From a virus: 64,000 nt of DNA. Positions 3,232 to 38,288 of the stretch are shown piece after piece. The first letter of the stretch is position 1, and each line of letters opens with the position of its first letter. The stretch covers positions 64,001 to 128,000 of the IMG/VR virus record IMGVR_UViG_3300005096_000137. One strand, given 5' to 3'. A program made the position numbers and the translations under genes. The notes under the pieces are model-generated. The model searched no databases and was not told where the DNA came from. It saw only the letters and a list, made by a program, of their open reading frames with translations.

Positions 3232-3902
3232 ATGTGATCACAACTCCCATGACGCTCCCTGATGAAGCAAATAATAAGGTGAATGCTGATTGCCGTTCCT
3301 TCACAGAATCAATGGAGGGTAAGGGGCAGTCCCTGGAGTACTACGAAGAGAATCGAGCTGCCTGGGACCCCTGGTATGATGTCTTTGTGGGTAAGAAAGC
3401 AGAGTACTTTGCCAGCCTCTACATGACATACAAGAAGGACTACCCATTGGTGTACCCAGATGTGTCGGTCCGTCAAGGATACCGGAAGGGGTGGGGCTTT
3501 GATTTAACATACGAAGACCTTCCCTCCGTGCATGTCAAGTCTTGTACTCAGCGGACAATCGATAGTGTTGGTGACTACAGTTGGACATGGCAGTGGAAGA
3601 ATCAACATGATGACGGCGGTCGGGACAGGGTATTTACGCAAGAAGAGCCTGGTCTTGTGGTCTGTGTGTTTCTCCCGAGTCTATCTGCACCTACTGCGGA
3701 TATTAAATTGGTGCTGCCCACTGAGATGATGTTGGAGAAGGTCCGGGATCCAAAGAGCACAACACACATCGGTTTTAAGAAGTGCTTGTATTTTGCTGAT
3801 TTCAGTAACGACCCACTTCCACCCCGATACAAAGACATTTGCAATAGTCCCACACTATCCAGTGCTGATCTCGATGCAATGATTGGAGGACTCGGCGTAT
3901 GA
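3222..3902 (+). CDS. hypothetical protein, possible PD-(D/E)XK-type nuclease
   Basis: GKKAE...PD...DL...VHVKS pattern. Confidence 0.45.
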   Translation: MELNVITTPMTLPDEANNKVNADCRSFTESMEGKGQSLEYYEENRAAWDPWYDVFVGKKAEYFASLYMTYKKDYPLVYPDVSVRQGYRKGWGFDLTYEDLPSVHVKSCTQRTIDSVGDYSWTWQWKNQHDDGGRDRVFTQEEPGLVVCVFLPSLSAPTADIKLVLPTEMMLEKVRDPKSTTHIGFKKCLYFADFSNDPLPPRYKDICNSPTLSSADLDAMIGGLGV

Positions 3903-4690
3903 CACTATCCCGCCGAAAACTACTCAAGGGCCTTGGGCTCAGCGGATTGAGCCTGGCTGTCTGTGTGGGTACGAAAATGACCCTCCCCATAGCTCAGTCG
4001 GAATCCCCCGACCCAACCCCTGAACCAACTCCTGAACCAACTTCTAAGAAGGGGTCTCGGGGGTCCATCAAGGAAATAGAAGCCCACATCGACGACTGCT
4101 GCATACCAAAGGCAACGCCCAAGCCGTCAATTGACGAACTTGTCGTGGACCACCTCGACCATAGTTTGGTGTCTCAGGAGACTGTGAACCAGGTTGTGAA
4201 GCAAGGTATTGAGGACACCAGGGCGGACCGGGAGCAGGGTCTTGAAGAGCTGGCGAAGCAGATCACACTGGTGGCGGAGCAGCAGGCATGCGAATGGGAG
4301 CAGAAGAAACATGAGTGGGAGCGACGTCGGGACCAGGAACGTCAGATGCAGTATCAAAGCAGTCAGTACCATACCAGGAGGTACCCACAACCTGATGGAC
4401 CTGATGGACCTGATCCACATGGTTTTCACTATGAAGAAATGGGATCAATTGATACCGTGTTGGGGCAACGCTTCACTACGTGTCAAGCGCCCCTATTTGA
4501 CATTAACTGCTTTCGTGATGACTCCGTACGGATGCTCCCTAACACCTACAAGGAATACTTTGTACGAAAGGTGGTCACGATTGTCGGCGAATCGGCGTGG
4601 GGTCCAGTCGTAGAGGATGAGTCGGTCCCTTGTGGGTATCGAGTTGCTTATCCAACTGAAATGGGTTTAGAAAGTGAGTACACACGGTGA
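3899..4690 (+). CDS. Tat signal peptide protein
   Basis: N-terminus SRRKLLKGLGLSGLSLAV, then a PTPEPT linker and coiled coil. Confidence 0.7.
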   Translation: MTLSRRKLLKGLGLSGLSLAVCVGTKMTLPIAQSESPDPTPEPTPEPTSKKGSRGSIKEIEAHIDDCCIPKATPKPSIDELVVDHLDHSLVSQETVNQVVKQGIEDTRADREQGLEELAKQITLVAEQQACEWEQKKHEWERRRDQERQMQYQSSQYHTRRYPQPDGPDGPDPHGFHYEEMGSIDTVLGQRFTTCQAPLFDINCFRDDSVRMLPNTYKEYFVRKVVTIVGESAWGPVVEDESVPCGYRVAYPTEMGLESEYTR

Positions 4691-4929
4691 TACGTCGACG
4701 AATTTACAATGAGATGCCCGACATTGGAAAGGATTCTCCAATTGTCACCCTCCAGTCAGCCCCAATTGTCAAAGACACCGAATGTGTCTTTCTATGTGGG
4801 AACCTCCAGGTCCGGGGTCCCGAACAGGACTACGTCATTGATACAGAGACCGGGGTAATTACTTTCAATTTCAATTTGAAGAATGAACCAGGTCAACGTG
4901 ATACTGTGGCGGTTAGTTATAATCCCTGA
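4687..4929 (+). CDS. stand-alone virion-type beta-repeat domain protein
   Basis: TL..AP...E.VFL.G.LQ..G...DY.I....ITF.....D.V.V.Y resembles a repeat of phage tail/baseplate proteins (recalled, not searched). Confidence 0.5.
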   Translation: MIRRRIYNEMPDIGKDSPIVTLQSAPIVKDTECVFLCGNLQVRGPEQDYVIDTETGVITFNFNLKNEPGQRDTVAVSYNP

Positions 4930-4970
4930 GGACTGATCAGTAGTCCTTACATTCAAGAGGTAAATAAACT

Positions 4971-5189
4971 GTGACCAACCAGCGTGACATACCAACAGGC
5001 TCGGAATCTCACGTCATGTTGTTCCCCGACCCCATTCAGGTAAATGCAGGTGAGACATTAACGGTAGTTTATACCGTTGGTTTTGGTCCTGAGTGTCAGG
5101 GTGGGGCAGTGTGTCGCCTTGAGGGTGCTAGGGTTACATCTGAAAGCGGACTTGTTGTCCAAGACTTCGATTATCTAAATGGTTTATGA
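4971..5189 (+). CDS. small protein with F..P+.V..G+.+...Y/F motif
   Basis: GAGG RBS; motif shared with 5219..5986. Confidence 0.55.
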   Translation: MTNQRDIPTGSESHVMLFPDPIQVNAGETLTVVYTVGFGPECQGGAVCRLEGARVTSESGLVVQDFDYLNGL

Positions 5190-5218
5190 TTAGAGAAACT
5201 TTCCAGTAAGGTATCCAA

Positions 5219-5986
5219 ATGACAATTTCACGACGTGGTATGCTACGGGCTCTAGGGCTGGGTGGTGCAGGGCTGGCACTTGGGGCTCACAAGGGGTTGG
5301 CTAATCTACCTGCCCTGGTTGATGCAGGTTCAGATACAAAAGACTTACCTCAGACCCTCGAAGCGATCCAGGACCTCGCGGACGCGGCAGAGGTGTGTTC
5401 TACAAATATGGGCAAGGCTTGGAAGCCCATTAAGTTCCGGAATGAGACACAACTCCCACCCGAGTCTATTCTTCCTGATTCCCCAATCAGCTTTCACATC
5501 CCAGATGCTGATAAGTCCAAGGCGCTCCAGGGACTTGTGGATGACTATCTCATCCCAGGGTTGAAATACCCGAAAACGACTCACCATGACCGGCATCTGC
5601 TAATGACGTTCTCCACACCGGTTGCTGTTGATACCGGGGACAGAATCAATGCCACCTTCCCAGGCGGGAAGCGCAACTTCGATATCCTCGCCAGAATCAC
5701 AGCCATTGGTGTGACGTGTGCTGGTGAACTGGCGATTGACGATGAAAGTGCCGATGGTGGCGTAAGGGTGGCCCGTTGTTCGGAAGTCACATCAGGAACA
5801 CTCCAGGCGTCTGATGACCCCAAAATGGATGTGGCTCTCGCTAATTTCAACCGGCTGGGTGCCGAGAACTTGACACCCGGAGAATGGATGCTACTGTATA
5901 GTAGGGCTCCGGGTATTCTGGATCCCTTTCATCCTAGTAACTTTCCTAATTCCAAGACTCTCGGCGAATTTGACGAGCGTTACTAA
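5219..5986 (+). CDS. Tat signal peptide protein
   Basis: SRRGMLRALGLGGAGLALGA. Confidence 0.7.
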   Translation: MTISRRGMLRALGLGGAGLALGAHKGLANLPALVDAGSDTKDLPQTLEAIQDLADAAEVCSTNMGKAWKPIKFRNETQLPPESILPDSPISFHIPDADKSKALQGLVDDYLIPGLKYPKTTHHDRHLLMTFSTPVAVDTGDRINATFPGGKRNFDILARITAIGVTCAGELAIDDESADGGVRVARCSEVTSGTLQASDDPKMDVALANFNRLGAENLTPGEWMLLYSRAPGILDPFHPSNFPNSKTLGEFDERY

Positions 5987-6519
5987 TGTACACAATCACC
6001 CATGATGATCACCGCGCACACTACCTGGCAATGCCTCGGACAGGTTCCAAGGCTGTCCGGGATGCGTTCCGTTCTGTAGTTGGCTGTCGGACGGATGGGC
6101 ACCATTGTCTTGATGACTTCAAGCGGATGGTGTTTCCTGGTGACCTAGTGATGTCCACCGTGAGAAATCCATTTGATTGGTTTGTCTCATTCTGGTACCT
6201 CAATGGATGTCCTGGTAAGTTCGACCGGTTTGTGCCCAAACTCTGTGACACATCCGAGTGGATCAAACGGAATGCTGACGTTACGGAGTGCCGGTTGTTC
6301 TGGAAGTATGCACCCCTCTCCACTCATATCCTCCGGTACGAATATCTCCAGGATGACCTGGATACTGCCCTCATACTCAATGGATTCCCGGAGATGCCTC
6401 TCAAGCAGAATGGAACTCCTAAACCCAGACCCTATCAAACTTACTACAAGCGGTTGACACGAGACTACGTTCAGTCTCGCTTTGCTGCTGAAATCAAGGA
6501 ATATGGATACCAGTTTTGA
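5986..6519 (+). CDS. sulfotransferase family 2 protein
   Basis: 5'-PSB-like MPRTGSKAV; 3'-PB-like VRNPFDWFVSFW; LRYE; C-terminal EYGYQF. Confidence 0.8.
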   Translation: MYTITHDDHRAHYLAMPRTGSKAVRDAFRSVVGCRTDGHHCLDDFKRMVFPGDLVMSTVRNPFDWFVSFWYLNGCPGKFDRFVPKLCDTSEWIKRNADVTECRLFWKYAPLSTHILRYEYLQDDLDTALILNGFPEMPLKQNGTPKPRPYQTYYKRLTRDYVQSRFAAEIKEYGYQF

Positions 6520-7076
6520 CAGTCGTTAACCACAAATACAAGTACGTGTTCTTCCATGAGCCACACACTGGTGGTCGCTCGGTGGAGCAGTCTCTCATGC
6601 AGCACGAGGGTAGCCACAACTGCAACGGTGAGCACCACATTAGTGTACCCAGTATGCTGACGAAGGGGTTCATTACTCAGGACCAGCTCGAAGCATACAC
6701 CACCTTTCGAGTCGTTCGACATCCCCTCGATTGGTTGATGACCTGTTGGCTGAGGGTTCGACAACCTCACCAGACGCTGACTTTCTGGGATTGGCTCCAG
6801 CACTACGGTAAGCTCCAGATGATGGAGAGTCCAAAAGGGCGGACTCTGTTCTGGCGTTACCAGGGGCATGCCTTTGAGACCTTTAACTTGGAAGGGATTA
6901 CTCCCGATTTGACCATGTACCTTACCCGGTATACTGGCTGCCCCCAGTTCACCGTGGGCACAGTAGGCAAGACTGAAGATAAACCGAATTGGAGGGATGT
7001 ACTGACGGTTACCCAGCACTGGCAGGCTATCCAGATGTATCCTGATATCCAATACTACGGGTACAAATACTCATGA
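6516..7076 (+). CDS. sulfotransferase family 2 protein (degenerate motifs)
   Basis: FFHEPHTGGRSV, VVRHPLDWL, YGYKY. Confidence 0.7.
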   Translation: MTVVNHKYKYVFFHEPHTGGRSVEQSLMQHEGSHNCNGEHHISVPSMLTKGFITQDQLEAYTTFRVVRHPLDWLMTCWLRVRQPHQTLTFWDWLQHYGKLQMMESPKGRTLFWRYQGHAFETFNLEGITPDLTMYLTRYTGCPQFTVGTVGKTEDKPNWRDVLTVTQHWQAIQMYPDIQYYGYKYS

Positions 7077-7633
7077 GTCTAAGACACAGAAACGTGGACA
7101 TAAGCAACCCGCCGGTTCTCCGTAGTCAATTGACTAATGCGTTCTCTGTAGGTAGATGGGAAGCCCGGTGTACCAAGAAGTGGCTGGAAACAGAAGAGGC
7201 TGTCGACGGGACCACCCTAGCACTACCTATTTGGCACTGGATGGGAAACTGCCTGTACTCTGGGTACCAAACCCTCCAGGCAGATGACGAAGTTCGGGTG
7301 TCCTGCCCAAAGTCTGGGGATCACCTTGCGGTTCAGATTACGGACCCGAGCACCTTCATGTGGTGTCAGAAAGTCCCAGATGAACCATGGACATTAACCC
7401 AGATATGTGGCAGCCTCAAGGGGCACCAGATGTCAACGATTCACTTGGCGGTGCATATCCAGTGTGACCAAGATATTCAGAGTGATCTCTGGTGGGCAGG
7501 CTTGGATATTGCCCCTGACCTCAATATGACCATTGATGGTAAATGCTATTGGTTCCCATACTTCCAAGGTTCATTGACACCTGTGGTGGGTGGGAGCTAC
7601 CTTCTTCAGGGCAATTCCAAACCCTATATGTAA
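7073..7633 (+). CDS. hypothetical protein
   Basis: ATGA coupling to upstream gene. Confidence 0.6.
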   Translation: MSLRHRNVDISNPPVLRSQLTNAFSVGRWEARCTKKWLETEEAVDGTTLALPIWHWMGNCLYSGYQTLQADDEVRVSCPKSGDHLAVQITDPSTFMWCQKVPDEPWTLTQICGSLKGHQMSTIHLAVHIQCDQDIQSDLWWAGLDIAPDLNMTIDGKCYWFPYFQGSLTPVVGGSYLLQGNSKPYM

Positions 7634-7642
7634 GGAACTGAT

Positions 7643-7858
7643 TTGAATTACCCCAGGTATACCAAACCTCTTGTGACTTATGATATAAGACCTAGCCATA
7701 CCTTCCTGTGTGGACCTGATTGGTTTACCTTTGCTTGGTTCACAGTCCAGGAACGTCTTGTCTACCCACCACAGTGCTCAATGATAATTGATGAGCGGTC
7801 GTGCTTCTTCTCTGATGAGTTTCACCTCTGCCGGGAGTTCTCTGAGATTGTTCTTTGA
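7643..7858 (+). CDS. hypothetical protein
   Basis: AAGGA RBS before TTG. Confidence 0.5.
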   Translation: MNYPRYTKPLVTYDIRPSHTFLCGPDWFTFAWFTVQERLVYPPQCSMIIDERSCFFSDEFHLCREFSEIVL

Positions 7859-7871
7859 AAGGAACTAATTT

Positions 7872-8507
7872 GTGTTGAATCGACGTGACTTGTTAAAGAT
7901 GTTCGGCGTGGGGGCAGTCTCAGCCACCATCCCAGCATCCCTCTCTCGGGCTGTGGTTCCTAAGAACGAGATTGTTGAGGTGCCTTGGCAGGAACCTCCT
8001 GAGGCGGCACCCTTTGGGTTCGCTGACCCTCCCCCGAAACCAGATGAACTGGATGACCTGGTTGAGAACCTGCCCGTCCCGGCTCCCGTCGATGCAGTTC
8101 ATGAGAGCCTCAGGGGTCAGGGGTTAGTCAGGCTGGATGAACATGGTGTGGTTACGTTTCACAACACCAATACTGACGAGAAGGTACATCTCAAAATACA
8201 CGAGGGTTCCATGGCCTATGGGCAAAGTATGGATGTGCAGTTTAGTCATGACCGAGGTCGACTGACTGTGCCGAATGCCAGCCATGGTCCCCTAGAGGTC
8301 AGTTTGTACGCACGTATTGCAGAAGTGGTCTCCCCTAACCCTGGTTGGCTTCAGACAATTCGGAGTGCAGGTCCAGAGGGCCTGGATATGATCATCTCGT
8401 TGCCGAACTCTGACCTACTGGTACTGTTTTCCAGGTTGGTGTACCAGTCGATGTCTCTCGACCCCAAAGAAGGGCTATTTGAAATTGAAGGGGTATGCTA
8501 CAATTGA
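7872..8507 (+). CDS. Tat signal peptide protein with probable tail-tube-like domain
   Basis: NRRDLLKMFGVGAVSA, Pro-rich linker, beta-rich domain (LKIHEGSMAY...DRG.L...PLEVSL...FEIEGVC). The tail tube assignment is inference. Confidence 0.6.
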   Translation: MLNRRDLLKMFGVGAVSATIPASLSRAVVPKNEIVEVPWQEPPEAAPFGFADPPPKPDELDDLVENLPVPAPVDAVHESLRGQGLVRLDEHGVVTFHNTNTDEKVHLKIHEGSMAYGQSMDVQFSHDRGRLTVPNASHGPLEVSLYARIAEVVSPNPGWLQTIRSAGPEGLDMIISLPNSDLLVLFSRLVYQSMSLDPKEGLFEIEGVCYN

Positions 8508-9379: not shown

Positions 9380-9404
9380 CCGCAGGTTTTATTGAAATTG
9401 GTTC

Positions 9405-9432
9405 TTGACTTCCCGGACCCATCGAGTATACT
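9405..9432 (+). promoter_or_regulatory. sigma70-type promoter for the ncRNA array
   Basis: TTGACT-16-TATACT. Confidence 0.75.
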
Positions 9433-9542
9433 TGGTAATAGAACGTGCCAAAGATTCAAGACTAATTCCAGCCAAAAGAGCTGGTGAACTCTAACTTGAG
9501 GACAGAACGATGTAGTTGGCTGGGTGAAAGCCCAGCACCCTT

Positions 9543-9667
9543 GGAGGGGTAGCTCAGTTGGTAGAGCGCCAGTAGCATAAAAACAGTTGTGACAAACTTG
9601 CTATTAAGCCGAACATAGCTGATTATCTCGGAACTGGATGTCGCGGGTTCGAGACCCGCCCCCTCCG
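9543..9667 (+). ncRNA. tRNA-shaped RNA with a Y-RNA module replacing the anticodon loop
   Basis: Acceptor GGAGGGG/CCCCTCC, D arm GCTC-AGTTGGTA-GAGC, stem CCAGT/ACTGG, T arm GCGGG-TTCGAGA-CCCGC. The 59-nt insert contains CAGTTGTG/CATAGCTG, ACTTG, AAGCCGAA and TTATC. Confidence 0.85.
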
Positions 9668-9669
9668 CT

Positions 9670-9734
9670 GCCTAAGCCGAAGTCAATGCGTTATCTTTCA
9701 TATGATTACCCGCACCGACATTCACTTGCCAGGC
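9670..9734 (+). ncRNA. minimal Y-RNA-like stem-bulge RNA
   Basis: GCCT/AGGC, AAG/CTT, unpaired CC, GAA/TTC, GTC/GAC, TGCG/CGCA; loop begins TTATC. Confidence 0.8.
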
Positions 9735-9759
9735 TATTTTAGATGTAGACCAATACTTT

Positions 9760-9878: not shown

Positions 9879-9883
9879 CTACT

Positions 9884-10891: not shown

Positions 10892-10896
10892 CCAGA

Positions 10897-25197: not shown

Positions 25198-25457
25198 TGG
25201 GTTCCTTGTTAGGGTGGTCCGGGAACATTGCAACAGTTATGGGAATTGGGATGGTCTCATACAAACTGCGAATCGGGTTTCTGTTCGGTATTCTCGGAGG
25301 TCTGTTTTGGGGCATACAAGGTACCTTGACACACCAGATGGACTTGGTTATACTAGAGATTGTGATAGCAATTATCCAAGCTTTTTCATGGTGGAAGTGG
25401 GGGAAGGCAGATGTGGGACCAGTGTGTCGAGTTTGTTCAAAACCAGTTACAGAATAA
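25194..25457 (+). CDS. small 3-TM membrane protein (PnuC-like half transporter?)
   Basis: Three hydrophobic helices ending WWKW. Confidence 0.5.
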   Translation: MMGSLLGWSGNIATVMGIGMVSYKLRIGFLFGILGGLFWGIQGTLTHQMDLVILEIVIAIIQAFSWWKWGKADVGPVCRVCSKPVTE

Positions 25458-26679
25458 CGACCTCTTCCAGGGTGGTCTTCTGCTCATGGTGGGTGGTGCC
25501 ATTTTGGCGTTGGTTCGCTCATGGCCTTTCAGGTTCTGGGGATTCATTAAATACCATTCCATGGTCGTCATTGATATCCCAGACAGGGACAGGTCCTTCA
25601 AGTGGGTTGACAGATGGCTGTCAAATCATAGTTATGCACTAAAGCATGCACGGGTGCTGACAGTGGACACTAAGGGATCACATCGTCCTCGACTATTGTC
25701 AAGGACACATATTATGTTCACGCCCGCACCAGGCACTCACTGGCTGTTTTACAAGTACCGATTGATCATACTTAGCCGCTCACGGAAGATTCAAGAGAAT
25801 GGCGACAGTGACGACGCCTATCGGGAAGCGTTTACCATCCGCGTCCTTGGACGTGACCGTGCTATCGTGCGGGAGTTGTTAGAAGAGGCTCGGGATACTT
25901 TCAAGCCTGAGAGTCAAAACAACATGGTCGTGTACACTCGTGGCCTAGGGTACTGGGATGATTATTATGTACCTACCAGGTCCATGGAGTCTGTGATACT
26001 TCCTGAAGGGCAGTCTGAAATGCTCATCCAGGATATGACAAGCTTCCTAAGTTCGGAGGTATGGTACCGGGAAAAAGGAGTCCCATACCATCGGGGGTAC
26101 CTATTCCATGGACCTCCTGGGTCAGGTAAGACTTCGTTTCTGTTAGCCCTGGCAACCCATCTGGAGAGGGACATAGCCCTCGTAAATCTCAAGTCTACGG
26201 ACCTAGCTGACGGCGGTCTGGCGACTGCCCTTACGGAGGTCCCACGTAATACCATTCTCCTAATCGAGGACGTGGATTGTGTGGTACCTACACGGGAAGG
26301 TCGATCCACAGAGGGGATAAGCTTTGCGGGGTTACTGAACGCCCTGGATGGTTTGACAACTCCTCACGGGCAAATTGTCTTTATGACGACCAACCATCGA
26401 GAGAAACTTGATCCCGCACTAATCCGGCCAGGGCGATGTGACACTGAGGTTCTTTTTACACATGCTACCAACTTTCAAAAGGAGATGATGTTTACTCGGT
26501 TCTTTCCTGATTCACCTTTGGCCTCGAAGTTTGCGCAAGTTGCTGATGGCAATATCAGCATGGCGGAGATTCAGAAATACATGATGCTTTATACCGATAG
26601 CCCCCAAGCTGCCCTTGAGAATACAAACCAACTACGGAGAGTGCAAGATGAGACGGAAGCGAAAACGCCAGAAGAATAA
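25411..26679 (+). CDS. BCS1-like AAA ATPase
   Basis: N-terminal TM, PAPGTHW BCS1_N motif, WY...GVPYHRGYLFHGPPGSGKTS, IEDVD, MTTNH..LDPALIRPGRCD. Confidence 0.9.
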   Translation: MWDQCVEFVQNQLQNNDLFQGGLLLMVGGAILALVRSWPFRFWGFIKYHSMVVIDIPDRDRSFKWVDRWLSNHSYALKHARVLTVDTKGSHRPRLLSRTHIMFTPAPGTHWLFYKYRLIILSRSRKIQENGDSDDAYREAFTIRVLGRDRAIVRELLEEARDTFKPESQNNMVVYTRGLGYWDDYYVPTRSMESVILPEGQSEMLIQDMTSFLSSEVWYREKGVPYHRGYLFHGPPGSGKTSFLLALATHLERDIALVNLKSTDLADGGLATALTEVPRNTILLIEDVDCVVPTREGRSTEGISFAGLLNALDGLTTPHGQIVFMTTNHREKLDPALIRPGRCDTEVLFTHATNFQKEMMFTRFFPDSPLASKFAQVADGNISMAEIQKYMMLYTDSPQAALENTNQLRRVQDETEAKTPEE

Positions 26680-31216: not shown

Positions 31217-31237
31217 CATTTACCTTTGGAGATTGAT

Positions 31238-32026: not shown

Positions 32027-32051
32027 CAACCACAACTTTATCAGGTACACT
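32023..32051 (+). promoter_or_regulatory. sigma70-type promoter (likely leaderless transcript)
   Basis: TTGACA-17-TACACT with ATG 6 nt downstream. Confidence 0.75.
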
Positions 32052-32057
32052 TGCAAT

Positions 32058-32582
32058 ATGGCGATCGTTTACGAAGCCACTGAGGATCGAGACTACTACG
32101 GGACACCCCCTGAATGGGCGGAACGTTGCCGCACAGTCTTGGATGGTATCGACTTAGATCCCGCTTCTTGTGAAGAAGCGAATCGACAGGTCATACGGGC
32201 AAACCGATTCATGGACAAGGAAATGAACGCTTTGGAGCAAGATTGGAATTGCCGGTCCTTGTTTCTCAATCCACCATACAGCCGGACACTTCTCCCAGCA
32301 TTTGCGAAGAAGTTTCGTACACAATGGAACCTTAACAACATTAGAGAATCGGCGATTGTTCTGATAAACAATTCCACAGAGACAGGTGCATTTGAACAGT
32401 TTAGTAGGTGTTCTGATCTTCGGGCAGAGCCCTGTGCCCGCATCCAGTTCGTGAGCACAGAAGGTCGGAGTGTGACAGGTAATCCCCGGGGTCAGGTCTT
32501 CTTTTATTATGGCCCTGATCCTGATTTATTCTCCCGAGTCTTCCGTTGGGCGGGTTGTCGGATAATGAAGGTAGTTGAATGA
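32058..32582 (+). CDS. phage DNA N6-adenine methyltransferase
   Basis: Y.TP, IDLDPAS, LFLNPPYS, RIQF. Confidence 0.85.
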   Translation: MAIVYEATEDRDYYGTPPEWAERCRTVLDGIDLDPASCEEANRQVIRANRFMDKEMNALEQDWNCRSLFLNPPYSRTLLPAFAKKFRTQWNLNNIRESAIVLINNSTETGAFEQFSRCSDLRAEPCARIQFVSTEGRSVTGNPRGQVFFYYGPDPDLFSRVFRWAGCRIMKVVE

Positions 32583-33058
32583 TCACAGGCAACATTAGTT
32601 ACGCGGCGGTCCAAATACAGGCGTTCAAGTATCGTCAGGGGGATTCCGTGTTCTGGGATGACATCAAGCACGAAGTTCCTTCGCATTCCTGCTGGGAAGA
32701 TTTGACTGGCGCTGACTTCCCAGGCAGTCATCCCCTGCTCCGCATCCTGGAGGATGTGTACGGGCTCTATGTGAATTCGATCGGAGATTGGAACATTGGT
32801 TATTCGTCCTTCGTCGAGCATTATGACTTTCAGAATCATCCAGAGGTCGGGCTACTTGAACACATGCCTCAGATAGTCAAGTTGCTGGAAGCCGAATTTG
32901 CGAAGCACCACGACAACCCCAAACAGGTGAGCATCACAACAATGTGGTCTGAGACCACATGGCAAACTCACGAAGGTGACTATGATTCGATGATTACGTT
33001 CCATGGCGGTTTCAACCTGCGTGACCTTGTAAGTCTTGCTACACCAATGGGTACCTGA
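32579..33058 (+). CDS. hypothetical protein, PxHS family paralog 1
   Basis: VQIQA...G..V...VPSHSCW..L. Confidence 0.7.
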   Translation: MITGNISYAAVQIQAFKYRQGDSVFWDDIKHEVPSHSCWEDLTGADFPGSHPLLRILEDVYGLYVNSIGDWNIGYSSFVEHYDFQNHPEVGLLEHMPQIVKLLEAEFAKHHDNPKQVSITTMWSETTWQTHEGDYDSMITFHGGFNLRDLVSLATPMGT

Positions 33059-33059
33059 T

Positions 33060-33575
33060 ATGTCGACCACTTACAGTATCGTCCAAATCCAGGGCAAGGC
33101 CTTCTCGAAGGGGGAGTTGGTGTACCATGATCAATGTGATGACCTGACCCCTGGTCATTCGACTTGGGACAACCTTGCTGATGAGAAGGAGAGGTTCATC
33201 CCTAGTGGCGACCCTAATGTGGACTTTCGGGACACATCAGAGTGGGAGATAAAGGAGGATTGTATTGGGTTACGATTCACCGCGCTTGGTACACAAACCC
33301 TTCATTGGAATTCATTCTTCATCGAGTTTGTGGAGAAGTATGGGATCTTGCGGGTTGTTGAACCTTTTCGGAAGGTTATTGTAGCAGATGTTCAGGCTGC
33401 AATGGATAGGGCCTCCGAGGACTTCTGGGCACTCAAATACCACCAGACTATCAACACTCTCTGGTCGTACACCCACTGGGATACCGCAAAGCCACACAAG
33501 ACACACAAGCCAGCTCTCGTGTACCACGGACCCTTTGATATCAAAGACCTTTTATCCCTGACTCCAAGAAACTAA
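33060..33575 (+). CDS. hypothetical protein, PxHS family paralog 2
   Basis: SIVQIQG...KGELV...TPGHSTWDNL. Confidence 0.7.
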   Translation: MSTTYSIVQIQGKAFSKGELVYHDQCDDLTPGHSTWDNLADEKERFIPSGDPNVDFRDTSEWEIKEDCIGLRFTALGTQTLHWNSFFIEFVEKYGILRVVEPFRKVIVADVQAAMDRASEDFWALKYHQTINTLWSYTHWDTAKPHKTHKPALVYHGPFDIKDLLSLTPRN

Positions 33576-34084
33576 TGAATACCATAAATAGCCACTCAAT
33601 TGTCCAGGTAATTGCGGAGAGGTTCCACAAAGGTCAGCCAGTGCTCTTTGAACGCCTCAAGGACATGGTTCCTTGCCATTCTTCTTTTGACAAACTGACT
33701 GACGCCCTGGGTTGTAGTGAGCAACCATGTGCTAGTGTGCTCCCCACTGATGAGAGAACGTTCAAGGAAGCAGCATTCGGTATGACATTTCATTCGGTGG
33801 GAGAGCCAACCGGCGGGCATCCCTCTTGTTTTGAATACACACGGAGCCAGCAATCTCTGGAGGAGATGGTGGCCCCCTACCACACCAAGTTCGTGACCTA
33901 TTGCAAGCAACACTTTCAAGCAGCCCAGAATGCCAGGACTGTCAGTAGCAACATTGTTTCGATACTCACCCTCTGGGGGAGTGCAGTTTGGATGGACAGG
34001 ACGGGTAAGATTGTTACTGACAACCAGTTCCGTGGTATCCTGAACATGAACGTGTTGACAGATAATTTACTTGACAGGCAGTAG
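33575..34084 (+). CDS. hypothetical protein, PxHS family paralog 3
   Basis: SIVQVIA...KGQPV...VPCHSSFDKL. Confidence 0.7.
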   Translation: MNTINSHSIVQVIAERFHKGQPVLFERLKDMVPCHSSFDKLTDALGCSEQPCASVLPTDERTFKEAAFGMTFHSVGEPTGGHPSCFEYTRSQQSLEEMVAPYHTKFVTYCKQHFQAAQNARTVSSNIVSILTLWGSAVWMDRTGKIVTDNQFRGILNMNVLTDNLLDRQ

Positions 34085-34099
34085 TCTATGGTGTACACT
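34071..34099 (+). promoter_or_regulatory. sigma70-type promoter heading the five-gene Tat operon
   Basis: TTGACA-17-TACACT. Confidence 0.8.
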
Positions 34100-34126
34100 T
34101 GAGAGTAAACCTGTTGGAGACTTCAA

Positions 34127-35062
34127 ATGCTTGATCGTCGTGTATTTCTAAAGACCCTAAGCGCTGGTGCAATTGCGGCTATCCATGCAGCTAATGCAGC
34201 TAATGCAGCTAATGCAGAGACACCCCCGCTACCTCACTCTCACCCACTCCCACGTCCACAGTTTATCTGCCTTCCAAAGCGGTTCCCGGAGCCCCCAAGA
34301 CAAATTCACATAGGTCCTCGAAAAGGAAAGCATGCGCCACGCCTCTGGCAAGTCCCACAAGGTTGGTTTAAGTATCGGGACCATAAACTACTGGGCACTT
34401 GTGGCGCTGGCAGTACCACAGAAGAGGACATCGGGACCTTTACAGCAGGTCCCGGAGAAGACAAGCTTCAGTACCGTTTTGGCAAGACCCTGGAGTGCGA
34501 CGGTTTTATGCGAATAGGTGCCAGTCACACTGGTTGGACAAATCCCATATTCCTCCTGGCAGTTCATGACGGACCTGTTGTTGAATTCGGGTGTTACGGT
34601 CGCCAACCCGGCGATCTGGCGTTGGAATTGGGGTCCCGTCCATACTATCACCCCTGCTCGTTTGTCTCAGTGTTCCGACCCAATAGTCCACTACCTGATG
34701 ATGGTCACTACGAGACCACGATTGATTGGGACCTAGGTTCCCAGAAGGCAGACCCATACAAAACTGCCCTTCGCTTGAATTTTGCATACGAACATTACAG
34801 TCTTTCACGATCCCAGCGGATGGCTGATTTCGTGATGCCTCCTCGAATGCTGGCTTTTGAATATGACAATGATGCGTATGATGCAATTATGTATGCTATG
34901 GATAGTTACAAGGTTGCTCCCACCCAGGGCTTCCGGATATCAAGCCACGGGTACAATTTCCAACTCTCTACCCGAAATCCACCAGTCCTGGCTCAGAATT
35001 ACGCAATACAATCAGCCAGTGCCATGCGAGGCAGTCCAGTATGCTTAGACGAGACTTCCTAA
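34127..35062 (+). CDS. Tat signal peptide protein, paralog family member A
   Basis: DRRVFLKTLSAGAIAA with ANA repeats; G..+.CDG and P+FL+A+.+GP+VE motifs. Confidence 0.75.
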   Translation: MLDRRVFLKTLSAGAIAAIHAANAANAANAETPPLPHSHPLPRPQFICLPKRFPEPPRQIHIGPRKGKHAPRLWQVPQGWFKYRDHKLLGTCGAGSTTEEDIGTFTAGPGEDKLQYRFGKTLECDGFMRIGASHTGWTNPIFLLAVHDGPVVEFGCYGRQPGDLALELGSRPYYHPCSFVSVFRPNSPLPDDGHYETTIDWDLGSQKADPYKTALRLNFAYEHYSLSRSQRMADFVMPPRMLAFEYDNDAYDAIMYAMDSYKVAPTQGFRISSHGYNFQLSTRNPPVLAQNYAIQSASAMRGSPVCLDETS

Positions 35063-35634
35063 AGGCAACGGGCGCGAGCCTAGCACTGTCAAGCATGGCA
35101 GTTGCTGGGCTCCCGGTGTTGACACCACCACCAAAATGCAAACCTATACCCCAGTACCTGGAACTGTTCCAGCCATACCATCGCCGACTCGACGGTGTAA
35201 AACCTGGTCAGTTCTTTACGTACAAGGGTCATTGGAAACAAGTCGAGAGTTACGGAAGTGAAGTACGTTGTGACGGGTACATGTACCTGGGTGATCGTTT
35301 GATGCCACCAAAGAATCGATGGTCCATTGGAGATGCACCAGTGTTTTTGATTGCACTCACTAATGGTCCCATTGTTGAATTGGTAGGCGACTGCTTGGAA
35401 GACCCAGCATTCGCGAAACTCCTGGGACCAATAACTCACCCGTACCCATTTGAATTGTACACCATGATGAACGAGGATGTGCTGTCCGACTTCACATGGT
35501 ATTATGCGGACGTCACACAGAATGCGTGCGAAGAAATGACTTATGGTTCACCCAGCTACCTGGACGTTGAGTCCAGAATGCAGAAGGTGCGAAGTTATTA
35601 TAACATTGACGAGCACGGTATGGTTCAGAAATAG
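35041..35634 (+). CDS. Tat signal peptide protein, paralog family member B
   Basis: LRRDFLKATGASLAL..AVA; GSEVRCDG, PVFLIALTNGPIVE. Confidence 0.78.
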   Translation: MLRRDFLKATGASLALSSMAVAGLPVLTPPPKCKPIPQYLELFQPYHRRLDGVKPGQFFTYKGHWKQVESYGSEVRCDGYMYLGDRLMPPKNRWSIGDAPVFLIALTNGPIVELVGDCLEDPAFAKLLGPITHPYPFELYTMMNEDVLSDFTWYYADVTQNACEEMTYGSPSYLDVESRMQKVRSYYNIDEHGMVQK

Positions 35635-35644
35635 GGGATTTCAG

Positions 35645-36475
35645 ATGGACAGACGCGGATTTCTAGGCAAGCTTGGTATTGGGGTAGCAGCGGCTGGTGT
35701 TTTGGGCCGTGAGGCTATCGCGCGGATTCCCAAGGAGACCAAGAAACTTCCCAAGGAGCTATTACTACCTCCCGAGAAACTCACCTTGGCTGAGGTGACC
35801 ACTGCTGAGGTGACCACTGCTCTCAAGAGTAATTTCCCGGGGTTTGTGGACCAGGTTTCAAATACCGCGACAAAAGTTCCCCGCCGGTTGCCCACTCACA
35901 TTGCCCACCACCTCTACCCAGACAATGGTTTGTACCTCCAATTGATGAACTGCGATCACCATGTCCCTAACAAACGTTACGGTAAATACCGATCGGGAGA
36001 ATACGTGATCCAGAGTATCAATGACCCACCTGGCTTACAGGTCCTTGGTTCAGAGTTTACCATTGATGGCGCTGCCATGGCAGGTTATGTGGCGGTACAC
36101 AGTCCAACGGGGATTATATCCGAGGACCTAAAGAGTCCATTGTTCACTGATTTCCAACTCATGGCCAAGCGGAACCCACTCGACTATCATGTTGGCTGTG
36201 TCATGTGGTTAGCCCTGAGGAATGGTCCAGTGGTTGCATATAACTTCTTGAACAAAGCCCAACATCGGTGTGCCCGTACCCTTCGAGGCTCTCAGGACGT
36301 TGCATATCCTTGGTGTCTACAATCACGGGAATTTCGCAACAATGTGGGTGTGAATCACATTCGCTTTTATTACATGGCTGTGGCTGGAACTACACACGAA
36401 CCCCGGACTACACCCGAATCAATACGTGAGAGATTTGTGGAAGAAGGTATGTCTAACCCTGGAGAATTACGATGA
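35645..36475 (+). CDS. Tat signal peptide protein, paralog family member C
   Basis: True start MDRRGFLGKLGIGVAAAG after AGGGG RBS; YLQL, GSEFTIDG, WLALRNGPVV. Confidence 0.78.
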   Translation: MDRRGFLGKLGIGVAAAGVLGREAIARIPKETKKLPKELLLPPEKLTLAEVTTAEVTTALKSNFPGFVDQVSNTATKVPRRLPTHIAHHLYPDNGLYLQLMNCDHHVPNKRYGKYRSGEYVIQSINDPPGLQVLGSEFTIDGAAMAGYVAVHSPTGIISEDLKSPLFTDFQLMAKRNPLDYHVGCVMWLALRNGPVVAYNFLNKAQHRCARTLRGSQDVAYPWCLQSREFRNNVGVNHIRFYYMAVAGTTHEPRTTPESIRERFVEEGMSNPGELR

Positions 36476-37275
36476 GTTTGAATCGACGCGGCTTTCTTGG
36501 ATTCCTTGGACTGGGTGCAGTTGCTGCTGGAGCAGCATCTATTCCAGCCAAAGCTTTGGCGGGCGCCAAGGACGTGCTCCCTGAGTCTTTATTGACAGAG
36601 GTCTCAACCCCTGAGGCTCTTGTGCCCCACCAAGGGGCTCACTTAGACCCCACCACGGATTACCCTCACATACTCCGCTTGGTCCATGGGAATAGCCATT
36701 GGGCACGCCGTGGGCAGGCTGAGGCTGGGGACTGGATTACCCATGCGTGGAGGTCCAAGCAGTGTGTCTCCCATGGTCGCCGTCTGAGGTGCATCGGGTT
36801 TCGACATTTGGGCGATGTCGCCTTCCACTTCCACGAGCTGGAAGCAGGCACTGTGACAGACAAGTACACAGATCCGGATAGTCCAGAGTTCAAGGAGGTT
36901 GTCCAGAAGGCAGGCGAGTCCCGAGTCCCTTATGGTGTCAGTCATTATGCCTGGGGACCCCGCTATTCCATAACCCTTGTAGGTATTGGAGCTGTCGAAT
37001 TCACGGGGTTGAACCGGAGCAACCGGGGGTTTATGCGGCAGGCGATGGGCAAGCGGACCTCTTGTGACGCATTCACACTGGTGTCCCAAAAGGTGGTTCA
37101 CTCAACTGGCGGAACCTGGTTTAAGCCTACGATGGAATTCATTGATTCAAATGAGAGTAAGCTGTGGACACCCAGCTTAACTCAGCGAGTTGGAAAGAGT
37201 CAAATCTCCAAGTTCGCCAACATGTCCTCAACCCAGTTTGAATCAATGTATCGTGATGACAGGGATATGAGATGA
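36472..37275 (+). CDS. Tat signal peptide protein, paralog family member D (putative phage SSB-like domain)
   Basis: NRRGFLGFLGLGAVAAG..ALA; LRL...S, DPDSPEF, WGPRY, TWFKP. Confidence 0.75.
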   Translation: MSLNRRGFLGFLGLGAVAAGAASIPAKALAGAKDVLPESLLTEVSTPEALVPHQGAHLDPTTDYPHILRLVHGNSHWARRGQAEAGDWITHAWRSKQCVSHGRRLRCIGFRHLGDVAFHFHELEAGTVTDKYTDPDSPEFKEVVQKAGESRVPYGVSHYAWGPRYSITLVGIGAVEFTGLNRSNRGFMRQAMGKRTSCDAFTLVSQKVVHSTGGTWFKPTMEFIDSNESKLWTPSLTQRVGKSQISKFANMSSTQFESMYRDDRDMR

Positions 37276-38288
37276 ACAACCGACGTGATTTCTTAAAGAC
37301 ATTGGGACTTGGAGCCGCTGGGGTTACCCTGGTGGGTCGGCAGTTGTTGGTAGGGTCTCCTAAGGGTGTCCCCTCAGTCAAACTCCCACCAATTAGGGCT
37401 CTGGGGAGTGACTCACTTCCGGTTGATCCCCCGAGGATTGAACTTCCACCAGTTGGAATGACCTACCCTACTCAGGATAACCTACTGCCCTCAATGTGGG
37501 CAGTCAGTGCTCAGAGACTCCTTGAACAGAATCTGGTCATGGGTAATCTGGTTCACCGGGATTGTAGCGACGAGGTGTCACAGTTTGGGGACATAATCAA
37601 TTTGAGAAGCCCTGGCTGCAATATCCCAATACCACTGGACCAGCTTTTCTCCACACACTTTGTCATCAGAGATGGGGATGCCTCCAAGTCCTTTCAAGAA
37701 TTAAGGGAGCAATACCTCCGCCCGAGTATCCAAAAGCTTGCTCGCCAGATTGACCAGGCACTCATTGGGCAAGCTGTCCACTACACGGATAATACCGTTG
37801 GGGGTCAGTACTCTCTCTATGGTGCTAATGCAACCAACACCATCATTGATGCTCGCCGGAAACTAAACGATAATAGGGCACCCCTCTCTGACCGTAACCT
37901 GGTGTTGTCGACTGCCAGCTCGCAAGCCCTAAAGTGTTCAGAGATACTCCCGGTCATTCGGGATGGGGGTGGGTATCCGCCTCAAATCACTGCTCTCGAA
38001 GAAGCACGTCTGGGAAAGTACATTGGCTTCACCTGCTGGCATGTTCCTGATATGCCGTGGCATATCAACCTGGGTTTCCACCCTGACACAATGGCCCTGG
38101 TCACCCGACCATTACCTCTGGCCCTACCTAGACTCCCCATCCGCTCAGGTATTGGTGTTCACAACAACCTTGCACTCCGGGTGTCAATGATGTATGACGT
38201 GCAGACGTCTGGGACACGGATAACCACGGATGTGTTGGCGGGTATTGGTGTTCTTGACACTAACTTAGGCGTTATCATAGAAGGCTAG
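37272..38288 (+). CDS. Tat signal peptide fused to a P22 gp5-type (HK97-fold) major-capsid-like domain
   Basis: NRRDFLKTLGLGAAG; LVMGNLVHRD...FGD.IN, YLRP....LA.QID, IDARRKLN...AP...R.LVL, GFH..MALVTRPL, LRVSM.YD, DVL.G..VLD. Confidence 0.82.
   Translation: MNNRRDFLKTLGLGAAGVTLVGRQLLVGSPKGVPSVKLPPIRALGSDSLPVDPPRIELPPVGMTYPTQDNLLPSMWAVSAQRLLEQNLVMGNLVHRDCSDEVSQFGDIINLRSPGCNIPIPLDQLFSTHFVIRDGDASKSFQELREQYLRPSIQKLARQIDQALIGQAVHYTDNTVGGQYSLYGANATNTIIDARRKLNDNRAPLSDRNLVLSTASSQALKCSEILPVIRDGGGYPPQITALEEARLGKYIGFTCWHVPDMPWHINLGFHPDTMALVTRPLPLALPRLPIRSGIGVHNNLALRVSMMYDVQTSGTRITTDVLAGIGVLDTNLGVIIEG

What the first reader, a model, noticed from the sequence alone, without database searches (positions are those of the whole stretch)
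3899..38288. Eight Tat-tagged proteins that look like copies of core phage proteins: candidate exported decoy system
Seen: ORFs at 3899, 5219, 7872, 34127, 35041, 35645, 36472 and 37272 all start with a twin-arginine motif (SRRKLL, SRRGML, NRRDLL, DRRVFL, LRRDFL, DRRGFL, NRRGFL, NRRDFL). Each then has a Gly/Ala-rich h-region, usually a Pro-rich linker, and a passenger domain. The last five form one tightly packed operon with its own promoter. Recognised by eye: one passenger is clearly a major capsid protein. Others resemble a tail tube protein, an SSB-like protein (x4) and virion beta-repeat domains. Established: Tat exports folded proteins and can carry bound partners along. Capsid (CapRel, Lit), tail tube (DSR2) and SSB (retron Eco8, AbpAB, Hna) are known triggers of anti-phage sensors. 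Inference: these may be assembly-dead decoys that bind host sensors and move them to the membrane or periplasm. Alternatives are that they remove subunits of competing phages, act in periplasmic superinfection exclusion, or jam the Tat translocon. I know of no described system like this.
Basis: partly seen in the sequence, partly recalled or inferred. Interest (0 to 1): 0.95.

Follow-up and report, generated by a model that had tools for sequence, protein, structure and literature searches.

The report
Export-tagged copies of phage core proteins
An uncultured large phage carries eight accessory genes that join a bacterial Tat export signal to extra, cut-down copies of its own capsid, tail-tube and DNA-binding-type proteins; I found no published account of this gene design and its function is unknown.

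Summary
All eight ORFs exist at the stated coordinates. Each starts with RRxΦΦ, a Gly/Ala-rich hydrophobic stretch and usually an AxA site and a Pro-rich linker.

Six passengers are extra copies of core phage proteins:
- T8 is a P22-type major capsid protein that has lost 20 residues of the E-loop and the whole insertion domain.
- T3 carries a tail-tube-fold domain homologous to the phage's own tube protein.
- T4-T7 are OB-fold paralogs of a conserved untagged replication-module protein. Their closest solved fold is PhiC31 gp3, then SSBs.
- T1 and T2 remain unexplained.

Relatives of T4-T7 in other uncultured phages keep the leader. One related phage has both a full capsid gene and a Tat-tagged capsid fragment.

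The contig is truncated and lacks terminase, portal, scaffold and the normal capsid gene. All five relatives checked have a full-length capsid gene, so T8 is very probably an extra copy.

The genes sit in variable islands, and one island has an early-type sigma70-like promoter. Export is not shown.

I rank an envelope role (exclusion of kin phages) first. This scan's notes report the same design in 70 or more other phage genomes.

The parts
3899..4690 (+). T1: Tat-type leader, possible lipobox (LAVC), Pro/Thr linker, coiled-coil-like middle and a C-terminal domain of unknown origin
   Evidence: ORF. TIGR01409 13.8 bits, below the cut-off. No Pfam or PHROG family. No match to the core-protein profiles of this phage group.
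4687..4929 (+). Untagged 80-aa ORF whose start overlaps the T1 stop; a copy of the C-terminal domain of the virion-type protein at the contig start
   Evidence: 49% identity, E 7e-18, to residues 213-286 of genome ORF 75-938.
5219..5986 (+). T2: Tat-type leader with an AxA site and an orphan passenger carrying a 28-residue capsid-like motif
   Evidence: ORF. TIGR01409 15.1 bits. Only itself found among 5.8 billion proteins. hhalign against the capsid alignment gives probability 41%, E 2.9e-4, over 28 columns.
7872..8507 (+). T3: Tat-type leader, Pro-rich linker and a tail-tube-fold domain (residues about 100-211)
   Evidence: blastp E 1e-4 to the phage's tube protein at genome 5136-6263. Tube-family HMM E 1e-6. 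Alignment A6. The AF2 model has pLDDT 62-80 in this domain. Nearly all of the top 50 PDB matches are tail-tube, Hcp or Dit folds; best is 8iyk_M with Z 6.2, rmsd 4.0, 98 residues aligned.
34071..34099 (+). Sigma70-like promoter TTGACA-17-TACACT in front of T4
   Evidence: The same motif class occurs 12 times in the genome, all on the + strand, mostly before small early-looking genes.
34127..35062 (+). T4: Tat-type leader (ANA site), Pro-rich linker and a diverged OB-fold SSB-like domain with a C-terminal extension
   Evidence: Paralogy to T5 at E 1e-4. Family HMM E 3e-34.
35041..35634 (+). T5: Tat-type leader and the shortest OB-fold SSB-like paralog
   Evidence: TIGR01409 14.0 bits.
35645..36475 (+). 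T6: Tat-type leader (AIA site), a linker with a 29-residue portal-like motif, and an OB-fold SSB-like domain
   Evidence: TIGR01409 18.0 bits, over the cut-off. Portal-family HMM E 0.0016 over 29 residues, which is weak.
36472..37275 (+). T7: Tat-type leader (ALA site) and the canonical member of the tagged OB-fold family
   Evidence: TIGR01409 18.2 bits. 13 related clusters were found, 12 with an RR leader. The AF2 model has pLDDT above 90 for most of residues 62-225. Best PDB match is PhiC31 gp3, 9teh_I, Z 6.7, rmsd 4.8, 146 residues aligned, followed by OB-fold SSBs at Z about 4.
37272..38288 (+). T8: Tat-type leader without a clear AxA site, Pro-rich linker, and a trimmed P22-type major capsid protein lacking the E-loop tip and insertion domain
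   Evidence: PF11651 E 1.2e-10 and phrog_283 E 5.6e-26. 33-40% identity to untagged capsid proteins of about 470 aa. Alignment A3 shows a 58-residue N-terminal addition, a 20-residue E-loop deletion and a deletion of about 170 residues covering the insertion domain. The Pfam match jumps from model position 207 to 349.

Best explanation
These are accessory genes. They arose when the phage duplicated its own core genes (major capsid protein, tail tube protein and a conserved OB-fold replication-module protein), trimmed the copies and fused them to twin-arginine signal peptides.

Shown:
- The leader architecture.
- The homology and fold of six passengers.
- The existence of untagged counterparts.
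- Placement in variable islands.
- Retention of the leader in relatives.

Inferred:
- The host Tat pathway moves the folded passengers across the inner membrane. Five with AxA sites would be released into the periplasm. T8, and perhaps T1 as a lipoprotein, would stay tethered to the membrane.
- They act in the cell envelope. My best guess is exclusion of incoming related phages. A tube-fold domain is the natural partner of a tape-measure or tail-tip protein, and OB-fold proteins could bind nucleic acid that crosses the periplasm.
- I have no specific role to offer for a capsid-like domain in the envelope.
For: Leaders:
- Consensus RRxΦΦ, a hydrophobic stretch and AxA sites.
- TIGR01409 hits on 7 of 8, three over the cut-off.
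- The T8 leader is 50% identical to that of a bacterial Tat-type oxidoreductase.

Passengers:
- T8 is capsid-family.
- T3 has the tube fold.
- T4-T7 are OB-fold and are homologous to the untagged protein at genome 38015-38767 (HMM E 5.9e-9). That protein is a core gene, about 60% identical in more than 70 related contigs.

Conservation of the design:
- 12 of 13 related clusters of the T7 family keep an RR leader, in phage contexts syntenic with this window.
- One contig has two tagged genes in tandem.
- Related phage G003 has a full capsid gene and also a 97-aa gene made of a Tat leader plus a capsid N-arm piece.

Accessory status:
- Both clusters lie between core genes that are adjacent, or nearly so, in the syntenic relative G001.
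- A sigma70-like promoter of an early-looking class precedes T4.

Precedent, from my own knowledge: envelope-located exclusion proteins that act on the tape measure or on DNA entry include Ltp of TP-J34 (title and abstract of PMC3952083 seen), HK97 gp15, T5 Llp and T4 Imm/Sp.
Against: - No export has been measured and no dedicated predictor (SignalP, TatP) was available.
- Four leaders score just under the TIGR01409 cut-off, and T4 matches only a related model weakly.
- No passenger matches a known exclusion family.
- A capsid-like domain has no obvious partner in the periplasm.
- T1 and T2 are unexplained, and T2 is an orphan.
- The host is unknown, so even a periplasm is assumed.
Confidence: 0.4

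Rival explanations
1. Decoy or hitchhiker eviction. The tagged mimics of capsid, tube and SSB bind host immune sensors in the cytoplasm. Tat then carries the complexes to the membrane or out of the cytoplasm.
For: The passenger set matches protein classes known to trigger defence sensors (my own knowledge: CapRel and Lit for capsid, DSR2 for tail tube, retron Eco8 for SSB). The passengers really are such copies. Early-type promoter and variable-island location. Tat is known to co-export signal-less partners (abstract of PMC4273604).
Against: No result links any passenger to a host sensor. Known sensors are activated by binding their trigger, so a faithful mimic should set them off. Large sensor oligomers are unlikely Tat cargo. 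A cytoplasmic decoy would not need cleavage sites or Pro-rich linkers. An unchecked note from this scan on a similar case elsewhere put this reading at about one in three (e1-3266402).
Confidence: 0.15
2. The tagged copies bind their natural homotypic partners: the untagged capsid, tube or SSB-like proteins of this phage, or of a competing phage or satellite. They would tether those assemblies to the inner membrane, poison them, or drag them out.
For: Each identified passenger belongs to a family that self-assembles or binds cooperatively. T8 keeps 42 invariant family positions, including N-arm and core residues. The G003 fragment keeps just the N-arm and spine-helix start. The untagged 80-aa ORF is translationally coupled to T1. 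Capsid-like proteins that redirect another element's assembly are known (own knowledge: PICI Ccm, SaPI CpmB; also named in note e1-3266402).
Against: T8 lacks the E-loop tip and insertion domain used for contacts between subunits. Poisoning would also hit the phage's own assembly. No binding has been shown.
Confidence: 0.2
3. The leader is not used for export. It is a phage-specific handle with some other role, or these are decaying duplicates without function.
For: Export is untested. Four leaders are below the curated cut-off. T2 is an orphan. Unchecked scan notes report the same leader on many different capsid and portal pieces.
Against: The leaders carry every Tat feature, including peptidase sites, and resemble real bacterial leaders. 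The leader is kept across 12 of 13 diverged family clusters. The frames are intact, tightly coupled and preceded by a promoter. The T7 core folds confidently.
Confidence: 0.1
4. The eight substrates saturate or block the host Tat translocon to shut down host Tat-dependent functions.
For: There are eight Tat-type substrates in one phage against 0-1 in relatives. Five sit behind one strong promoter-like site.
Against: Jamming does not explain why the passengers are copies of core phage proteins, nor why relatives keep single copies.
Confidence: 0.05
5. T8 is the phage's real capsid protein, and the leader is an unusual N-terminal extension removed at maturation.
For: T8 is the only PF11651 or HK97-family match on the contig. 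A ClpP-like head-maturation protease is present at genome 28577-29155.
Against: The contig is truncated. The syntenic relative G001 has GpA-type terminase, portal, scaffold and capsid genes directly upstream of the connector genes, exactly beyond our contig's 5' end. None of the terminase, portal or scaffold genes has a match in our contig. All five relatives have a capsid protein of about 470 aa. T8 lacks the E-loop tip and insertion domain. It sits among early-type accessory genes, 100 kb from the tail module.
Confidence: 0.03

Closest known systems
Bacterial twin-arginine (Tat) signal peptides and hitchhiker co-export (TIGR01409 / PF10518; PaoABC, HybOC, DmsAB)
   Same: The leaders have RRxFLK-type motifs, a Gly/Ala-rich hydrophobic region and AxA sites. 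Three pass the TIGR01409 cut-off. The T8 leader resembles that of a bacterial oxidoreductase.
   Different: The passengers are not redox enzymes. They are cut-down copies of a phage's own capsid, tube and OB-fold proteins. Export and any co-export are untested.
P22-type (HK97-fold) major capsid proteins, PF11651 / phrog_283
   Same: T8 matches the family above the curated cut-off. It shares 33-40% identity and 42 invariant positions with untagged capsid proteins of related phages.
   Different: T8 has a 58-residue Tat leader and linker, lacks 20 E-loop residues and the whole insertion domain, and lies outside the head module.
Tail tube / Hcp / Dit fold (lambda gpV and tail-tip proteins, SPP1 gp17.1, T6SS Hcp)
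   Same: T3 residues about 100-211 are homologous to the phage's own tube protein. The model matches almost only this fold.
   Different: Only about the C-terminal 60% of the tube core is kept, a short internal segment is missing, and it follows an export leader.
PhiC31 gp3 (recombination directionality factor) and OB-fold phage SSBs (T4/RB69 gp32, PRD1 P12)
   Same: These are the best structural matches for T7: gp3 Z 6.7, rmsd 4.8, over 146 residues; SSBs at Z about 4; Foldseek gp32 core E 0.016. The untagged paralog sits in the replication module beside ParB and primase-helicase genes.
   Different: There is no sequence-family match in Pfam, PHROGs, NCBIfam or PDB sequences. The Z values are in the range where only a common fold is certain. 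DNA binding is untested. Four of the five copies carry export leaders.
Envelope-located superinfection exclusion proteins (Ltp of TP-J34, T5 Llp, HK97 gp15, T4 Imm/Sp, P22 SieA)
   Same: Small phage accessory proteins sent to the membrane or periplasm and expressed from host-type promoters. Some act on the incoming tape measure or on DNA entry (own knowledge; PMC3952083 and PMC11436027 were seen only as titles and abstracts).
   Different: There is no homology. The known examples use Sec or lipoprotein signals and are not copies of virion proteins.
Capsid-protein mimics of phage satellites (PICI Ccm, SaPI CpmB)
   Same: A capsid-like or capsid-binding protein is used for something other than building the element's own shell (own knowledge; named in scan note e1-3266402).
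   Different: Those act in the cytoplasm on a helper phage's assembly and carry no export signal.

Membership tests
Tat signal peptide (TIGR01409 / PF10518) | Twin-arginine motif (S/T)RRxFLK near the N-terminus | tested here: met
   RR lies at residues 3-5 in all eight. The motifs are RRDFLK (T5, T8), RRVFLK (T4), RRGFLG (T6, T7), RRDLLK (T3), RRKLLK (T1) and RRGMLR (T2).
Tat signal peptide (TIGR01409 / PF10518) | Moderately hydrophobic Gly/Ala-rich h-region followed by an AxA-type peptidase site | tested here: met
   The h-region is present in all eight. An AxA-type site is present in T2, T3, T4, T6 and T7. T8 has none that is clear, and T1 has a possible lipobox.
Tat signal peptide (TIGR01409 / PF10518) | Profile score over the curated cut-off | tested here: inconclusive
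   TIGR01409 (cut-off 16.7 bits): T8 20.4, T7 18.2 and T6 18.0 pass. T2 15.1, T3 14.5, T5 14.0 and T1 13.8 fall below. T4 matches only a related model. All PF10518 hits are below its 22.7-bit cut-off.
Tat signal peptide (TIGR01409 / PF10518) | Tat-dependent export of the folded passenger | not testable with these tools
   This needs fractionation in wild-type against tatC strains and RR-to-KK mutants.
P22-type major capsid protein (PF11651) | Family profile match over the cut-off | tested here: met
   41.2 bits against a cut-off of 24. phrog_283 E 5.6e-26.
P22-type major capsid protein (PF11651) | Complete architecture with an extended E-loop and insertion domain | tested here: not met
   20 E-loop residues and about 170 insertion-domain residues are absent relative to six relatives. 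The Pfam match skips model positions 208-348.
P22-type major capsid protein (PF11651) | Encoded in the head module next to scaffold, portal and connector genes | tested here: not met
   Relatives place the capsid gene directly upstream of the connectors. T8 lies at genome 101 kb, between the OB-fold paralogs and a DNA methylase.
Tail tube protein fold | Homology to the tube protein encoded between connector and chaperone/tape-measure genes | tested here: met
   blastp E 1e-4 and 1.5e-6; family HMM E 1e-6; alignment A6.
Tail tube protein fold | Tube/Hcp beta-sandwich fold | tested here: met
   Nearly all of the top 50 matches have this fold (Z 3.9-6.2; best is 8iyk_M, rmsd 4.0, 98 residues aligned). 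The model confidence is moderate, pLDDT 62-80.
Tail tube protein fold | Full-length tube subunit able to form rings | tested here: not met
   T3 aligns only to family-model positions 96-149 and 208-234 of 249, and an internal segment is missing.
Single-stranded DNA-binding proteins (OB fold) | OB-fold core | tested here: met
   The T7 model has pLDDT above 90 for most of residues 62-225. The match list is dominated by OB-fold DNA-binding proteins.
Single-stranded DNA-binding proteins (OB fold) | Membership of a described SSB sequence family | tested here: not met
   No hit for T4-T7 in Pfam, PHROGs or NCBIfam. No PDB-sequence hit for the T4-T7 profile. No Pfam, PHROG or NCBIfam hit for the untagged paralog.
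Single-stranded DNA-binding proteins (OB fold) | Binds single-stranded DNA | not testable with these tools
   This needs a gel-shift or similar assay. The best structural match, PhiC31 gp3, is known as an integrase partner rather than an SSB.
Envelope superinfection exclusion proteins | Homology to a described exclusion family | tested here: not met
   No Pfam, PHROG or NCBIfam match of that kind.
Envelope superinfection exclusion proteins | Blocks entry of related phages when expressed | not testable with these tools
   This needs plating assays.

The most novel reading that the evidence does not exclude
Phages use the host's folded-protein exporter as a disposal or relocation route. Tat-tagged mimics of capsid, tube and SSB-type proteins would seize whatever binds those proteins in the cytoplasm, either host immune sensors or the subunits of rival phages and satellites. 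They would then carry these partners to the membrane or into the periplasm by hitchhiking.
Probability: 0.15. Interest if true: 0.95.

Novelty: new variant of a known kind. Interest (0 to 1): 0.7.

Why it matters
Phage accessory genes in variable islands are where most new anti-defence and exclusion functions have been found. This design is systematic: the phage's own capsid, tube and OB-fold proteins were copied, trimmed and fitted with an export address. The address has been kept across diverged relatives. I found no description of it in the papers and libraries searched.

If the proteins are exported, pieces of virion and replication proteins have been recruited for work in the cell envelope. 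If they act before export, this would be a new way of removing proteins from the cytoplasm. Either outcome is directly testable with standard localisation and plating assays.

There is also a practical caution. A capsid-family hit in a phage genome is not necessarily the capsid gene, and a CheckV score of 100% did not mean this contig was complete.

Tried and rejected
Searches that found nothing:
- Close relatives of T8 in viral contigs: none.
- T8 in metagenome contigs: only leader matches to bacterial Tat substrates.
- tblastn of the untagged SSB-like protein and of T7 against 50,697 deposited phage genomes: no match.
- Profile of T4-T7 against PDB sequences: nothing.
- ESM Atlas look-up for T7: only low-score leads, and the Atlas model was poor.
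- Relatives of T2: none.
- T1 against the capsid alignment and against all core-family profiles: nothing.
- TatA family in the genome: none.

Terminase and capsid checks:
- Terminase_6N, TerL_ATPase and HK97 capsid families in the genome: none. I first read this as 'very divergent'. After comparison with G001, I read it as 'missing from a truncated contig'.

Complex prediction:
- The untagged SSB-like protein with T7 gave no answer: score 0.00, controls not run. This is no evidence either way.

Ideas considered and rejected:
- The leader as a capsid-targeting or scaffolding extension. The same leader sits on tube-fold and OB-fold proteins and carries peptidase sites.
- A link between the Tat genes and the phage BCS1-like ATPase. 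That ATPase is also present in relative G001, which has only one Tat-type gene, so there is no specific co-occurrence.

Literature:
- Two full-text searches gave no paper on Tat-tagged phage structural-protein copies.

Full report
**What the sequence is**

The window is bases 64001-128000 of a single 148,427-bp IMG/VR virus contig. Almost all genes lie on the + strand. The genome encodes:
- a tail module with a 1288-aa tape-measure-like protein, and a ClpP-like protease;
- a family A DNA polymerase, a primase-helicase-like protein and ParB-like proteins;
- ligases and RtcB, and DNA methylases.

No cultured phage is related at protein level for the two proteins tried.

**The observation**

All eight ORFs exist as described. 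I call them T1 to T8 in genome order. Each begins with RR at residues 3-5 in a Tat-consensus context, followed by a Gly/Ala/Leu-rich stretch. T2, T3, T4, T6 and T7 then have an AxA-type peptidase site. Most have a proline-rich linker.

- The TIGR01409 Tat-signal model hits seven of them. Three are above its curated cut-off and four just below.
- The T8 leader is 50% identical over 38 residues to the leader of a bacterial oxidoreductase-type protein with a classic Tat signal.
- A uniform motif scan (which missed T6) found seven of the eight here. It found 0-1 convincing cases in each of five related phage genomes. The cluster is therefore far more than chance or lineage background.
- T4 to T8 overlap or are 10 nt apart.
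- They follow a TTGACA-17-TACACT site. That motif class occurs 12 times in the genome, only on the + strand, mostly before small early-looking genes and never in the tail module.

**T8, the capsid copy**

T8 matches the P22 coat family above its cut-off and a major-head PHROG at E 5.6e-26. Its nearest relatives are untagged proteins of about 470 aa at 33-40% identity. One of them sits directly upstream of connector and tail genes that are syntenic with this phage's tail module. Those relatives are therefore working capsid proteins.

Aligned with them, T8 differs in three ways:
- it has 58 extra N-terminal residues (leader plus linker);
- it lacks 20 residues of the E-loop;
- it lacks the whole insertion domain, about 170 residues.

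The Pfam match also jumps from model position 207 to 349. T8 still keeps 42 positions that are invariant across the family, so the remaining fold looks maintained.

**Is T8 the only capsid gene?**

On this contig it is. But the contig is truncated.
- Its 5' end cuts into a gene. The frame is open to base 3 and carries a motif that normally lies near the N-terminus of tail-fibre-type proteins.
- Its 3' end is an 18-nt tandem repeat.
- The close relative G001 shares 50-80% protein identity and is fully syntenic. Its gene order is GpA-type terminase, portal, a 187-aa protein, scaffold-like protein, capsid protein, connectors, tail.
- Our contig starts a few genes upstream of the connectors and has no match to the terminase, portal or scaffold genes of G001.
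- All five relatives examined have one full-length capsid gene, at E about 1e-165 to 1e-178 against the family profile.

The simplest reading is that the head and packaging module lies in the unassembled part of the genome, and that T8 is an additional copy. CheckV's 100% estimate is misleading here.

**T3, the tail-tube copy**

T3 residues 104-209 match the C-terminal core of the phage's 375-aa tube-position protein (E 1e-4). They also match the tube protein of relative G003 (E 1.5e-6) and the family profile (E 1e-6). The alignment shows shared motifs to the last residues and one missing internal segment.

An AlphaFold model built on that alignment is only moderately confident in this domain (pLDDT 62-80). 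Even so, nearly all of the 50 best PDB matches are tail-tube, Hcp or Dit folds: lambda tail tip 8iyk_M Z 6.2 (rmsd 4.0, 98 residues aligned), SPP1 tube Z 5.5 (rmsd 5.0, 101 residues aligned), and a gene transfer agent particle protein Z 5.4 (rmsd 4.7, 99 residues aligned). The uniformity of the list makes the fold assignment safe, not the individual scores.

**T4 to T7, the OB-fold copies**

The four are weak paralogs of each other.

*Relatives.* A profile of their mature parts, searched against 1.8 billion representative proteins, found 13 further clusters.
- Twelve begin with an RR leader. The thirteenth starts inside the hydrophobic region and looks N-terminally cut.
- Their contigs are phage-like and syntenic with this window, with a methylase, a zinc-ribbon protein and an RNase T-type exonuclease downstream.
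- One contig has two tagged genes in tandem.

*Fold.* The T7 model is confident, with pLDDT above 90 for most of residues 62-225.
- Its best solved match is PhiC31 gp3 (Z 6.7, rmsd 4.8, 146 residues aligned).
- Next come OB-fold DNA-binding proteins at Z about 4.
- Foldseek ranks the gp32 core first, weakly.
- In predicted viral structures it matches uncharacterised phage proteins at E 1.6e-7, plus a few named RDF or SSB.

*Untagged counterpart.* A family HMM finds a fifth, untagged member in this genome at 38015-38767 (E 5.9e-9). It lies beside a ParB-like gene and the primase-helicase. It is a core gene of the lineage, about 60% identical in more than 70 contigs.

'SSB-like' is therefore fair at the fold and context level, but DNA binding is untested and no described SSB family is matched.

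Relative G001 also has an untagged T7-type paralog, so tagging is not universal in the family.

**T1, T2 and smaller pieces**

- T1 has a possible lipobox and a Pro/Thr linker, but no recognisable passenger.
- T2 is an orphan with a 28-residue capsid-like motif of low confidence.
- The T6 linker holds a 29-residue portal-like motif (E 0.0016).
- The untagged 80-aa ORF that overlaps the T1 stop is 49% identical to the C-terminus of the virion-type protein at the contig start.

**Comparative picture**

Both gene clusters are insertions relative to G001, between core genes that are adjacent or nearly so there. This is the usual place for accessory functions.

Relatives carry 0-1 Tat-type genes.
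- G001 and G004 have a tagged 335-aa protein with a cysteine-peptidase-like motif.
- G003 has a full capsid gene and also a 97-aa gene that joins a Tat leader to the capsid N-arm and the start of the spine helix.

So the design of leader plus piece of own core protein recurs independently. The phage studied here has expanded it.

Notes from this scan report the same design in at least 70 other phage genomes. I treat those as leads only. The one instance I checked myself is G003.

**How it most likely works**

Shown: the architecture, the homologies, the untagged counterparts, the island location and the conserved leader.

Inferred: the host Tat system exports the folded passengers. I rank an envelope role first (0.4).
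- Peptidase sites and flexible linkers are features of proteins released or tethered outside the membrane.
- Accessory proteins sent to the envelope that block entry of related phages are well known.
- A tube-fold domain is a natural ligand for an incoming tape measure or tail tip.

The capsid-like T8 does not fit this reading neatly.

The rivals, with my odds:
- Binding of homotypic partners in the cytoplasm, to tether, poison or hitchhike them (0.2).
It lacks any supporting result and faces the problem that such sensors fire on binding.
- A non-export role for the leader, or decay (0.1).
- Tat jamming (0.05).
- T8 as the true capsid protein (0.03).

**Comparison with what is known, and novelty**

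The parts are known: Tat signals, HK97-fold capsid, tube fold and OB fold. Their combination is not. Two full-text searches and a recent Tat review gave nothing comparable.

I file this as a new variant of a known kind, namely exported phage accessory proteins, because my best reading is an envelope function. If the hitchhiker reading were true, it would be categorically new.

Noticed in passing
window 25411-26679: A BCS1-like AAA ATPase (BCS1_N, AAA and lid domains). Mitochondrial Bcs1 moves the folded Rieske protein across a membrane in place of Tat (PMC13673990). The gene is also present in relative G001, which has only one Tat-type gene, so no specific link to the tagged genes is shown.
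   Followed up: partly
window 5986-6519 and 6516-7076: Two adjacent sulfotransferase-like genes lie between T2 and T3. One has a weak PF03567 hit. The first has a homolog in G001.
   Followed up: no
window 32579-34084: Three tandem untagged paralogs (159, 179 and 169 aa; E 1e-9 to 1e-13 to each other) lie directly upstream of the T4 promoter. They have no family match.
   Followed up: partly
L053 1486-1779 (- strand); G003:C1:49145-49438: A related phage that has a full capsid gene also encodes a 97-aa protein joining a Tat-type leader (KRRSFLRVIG...) to the capsid N-arm and the start of the spine helix.
   Followed up: partly
L062 16050-17057 (- strand); G001:C1:76050-77057, and G004:C1:74613-75620: Relatives carry a Tat-tagged 335-aa protein with a cysteine-peptidase-like motif (GDCVAHS ... 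WYHSM) near the terminase region. It has no Pfam match and could be an exported enzyme.
   Followed up: partly
genome 1-80 and 148170-148427 (outside the window; L003, L008): The contig starts inside a gene and ends in an 18-nt tandem repeat. Terminase, portal, scaffold and the normal capsid gene are missing, although CheckV rates the contig 100% complete.
   Followed up: yes
whole genome; window 25326, 32023, 34071, 55419, 62920: A promoter-like motif, TTGACA-N16/17-TA(C/T)A(C/A)T, occurs 12 times, all on the + strand. The copies at genome 139-147 kb share further flanking sequence.
   Followed up: partly
window 52953-54318: A run of a membrane protein, a Sec-signal protein (226 aa) and a 91-aa protein with RRRLFL followed by a transmembrane stretch. 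This may be a lysis or envelope cassette. The last protein is a ninth RR-type N-terminus but looks like a membrane anchor.
   Followed up: no
L054 1483-1956; G001:C1:84981-85454: An untagged 157-aa member of the T7-type OB-fold family lies next to a peptide deformylase-like gene in relative G001. The tagged family therefore also has leaderless members.
   Followed up: partly
genome 75-3607 (outside the window; L003): Five genes lie between the contig start and the connector genes; at least three look like tandem paralogs of about 210-240 aa. They sit where relatives have the capsid gene directly next to the connectors and have no counterpart in G001. They may be decoration or fibre proteins.
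   Followed up: no
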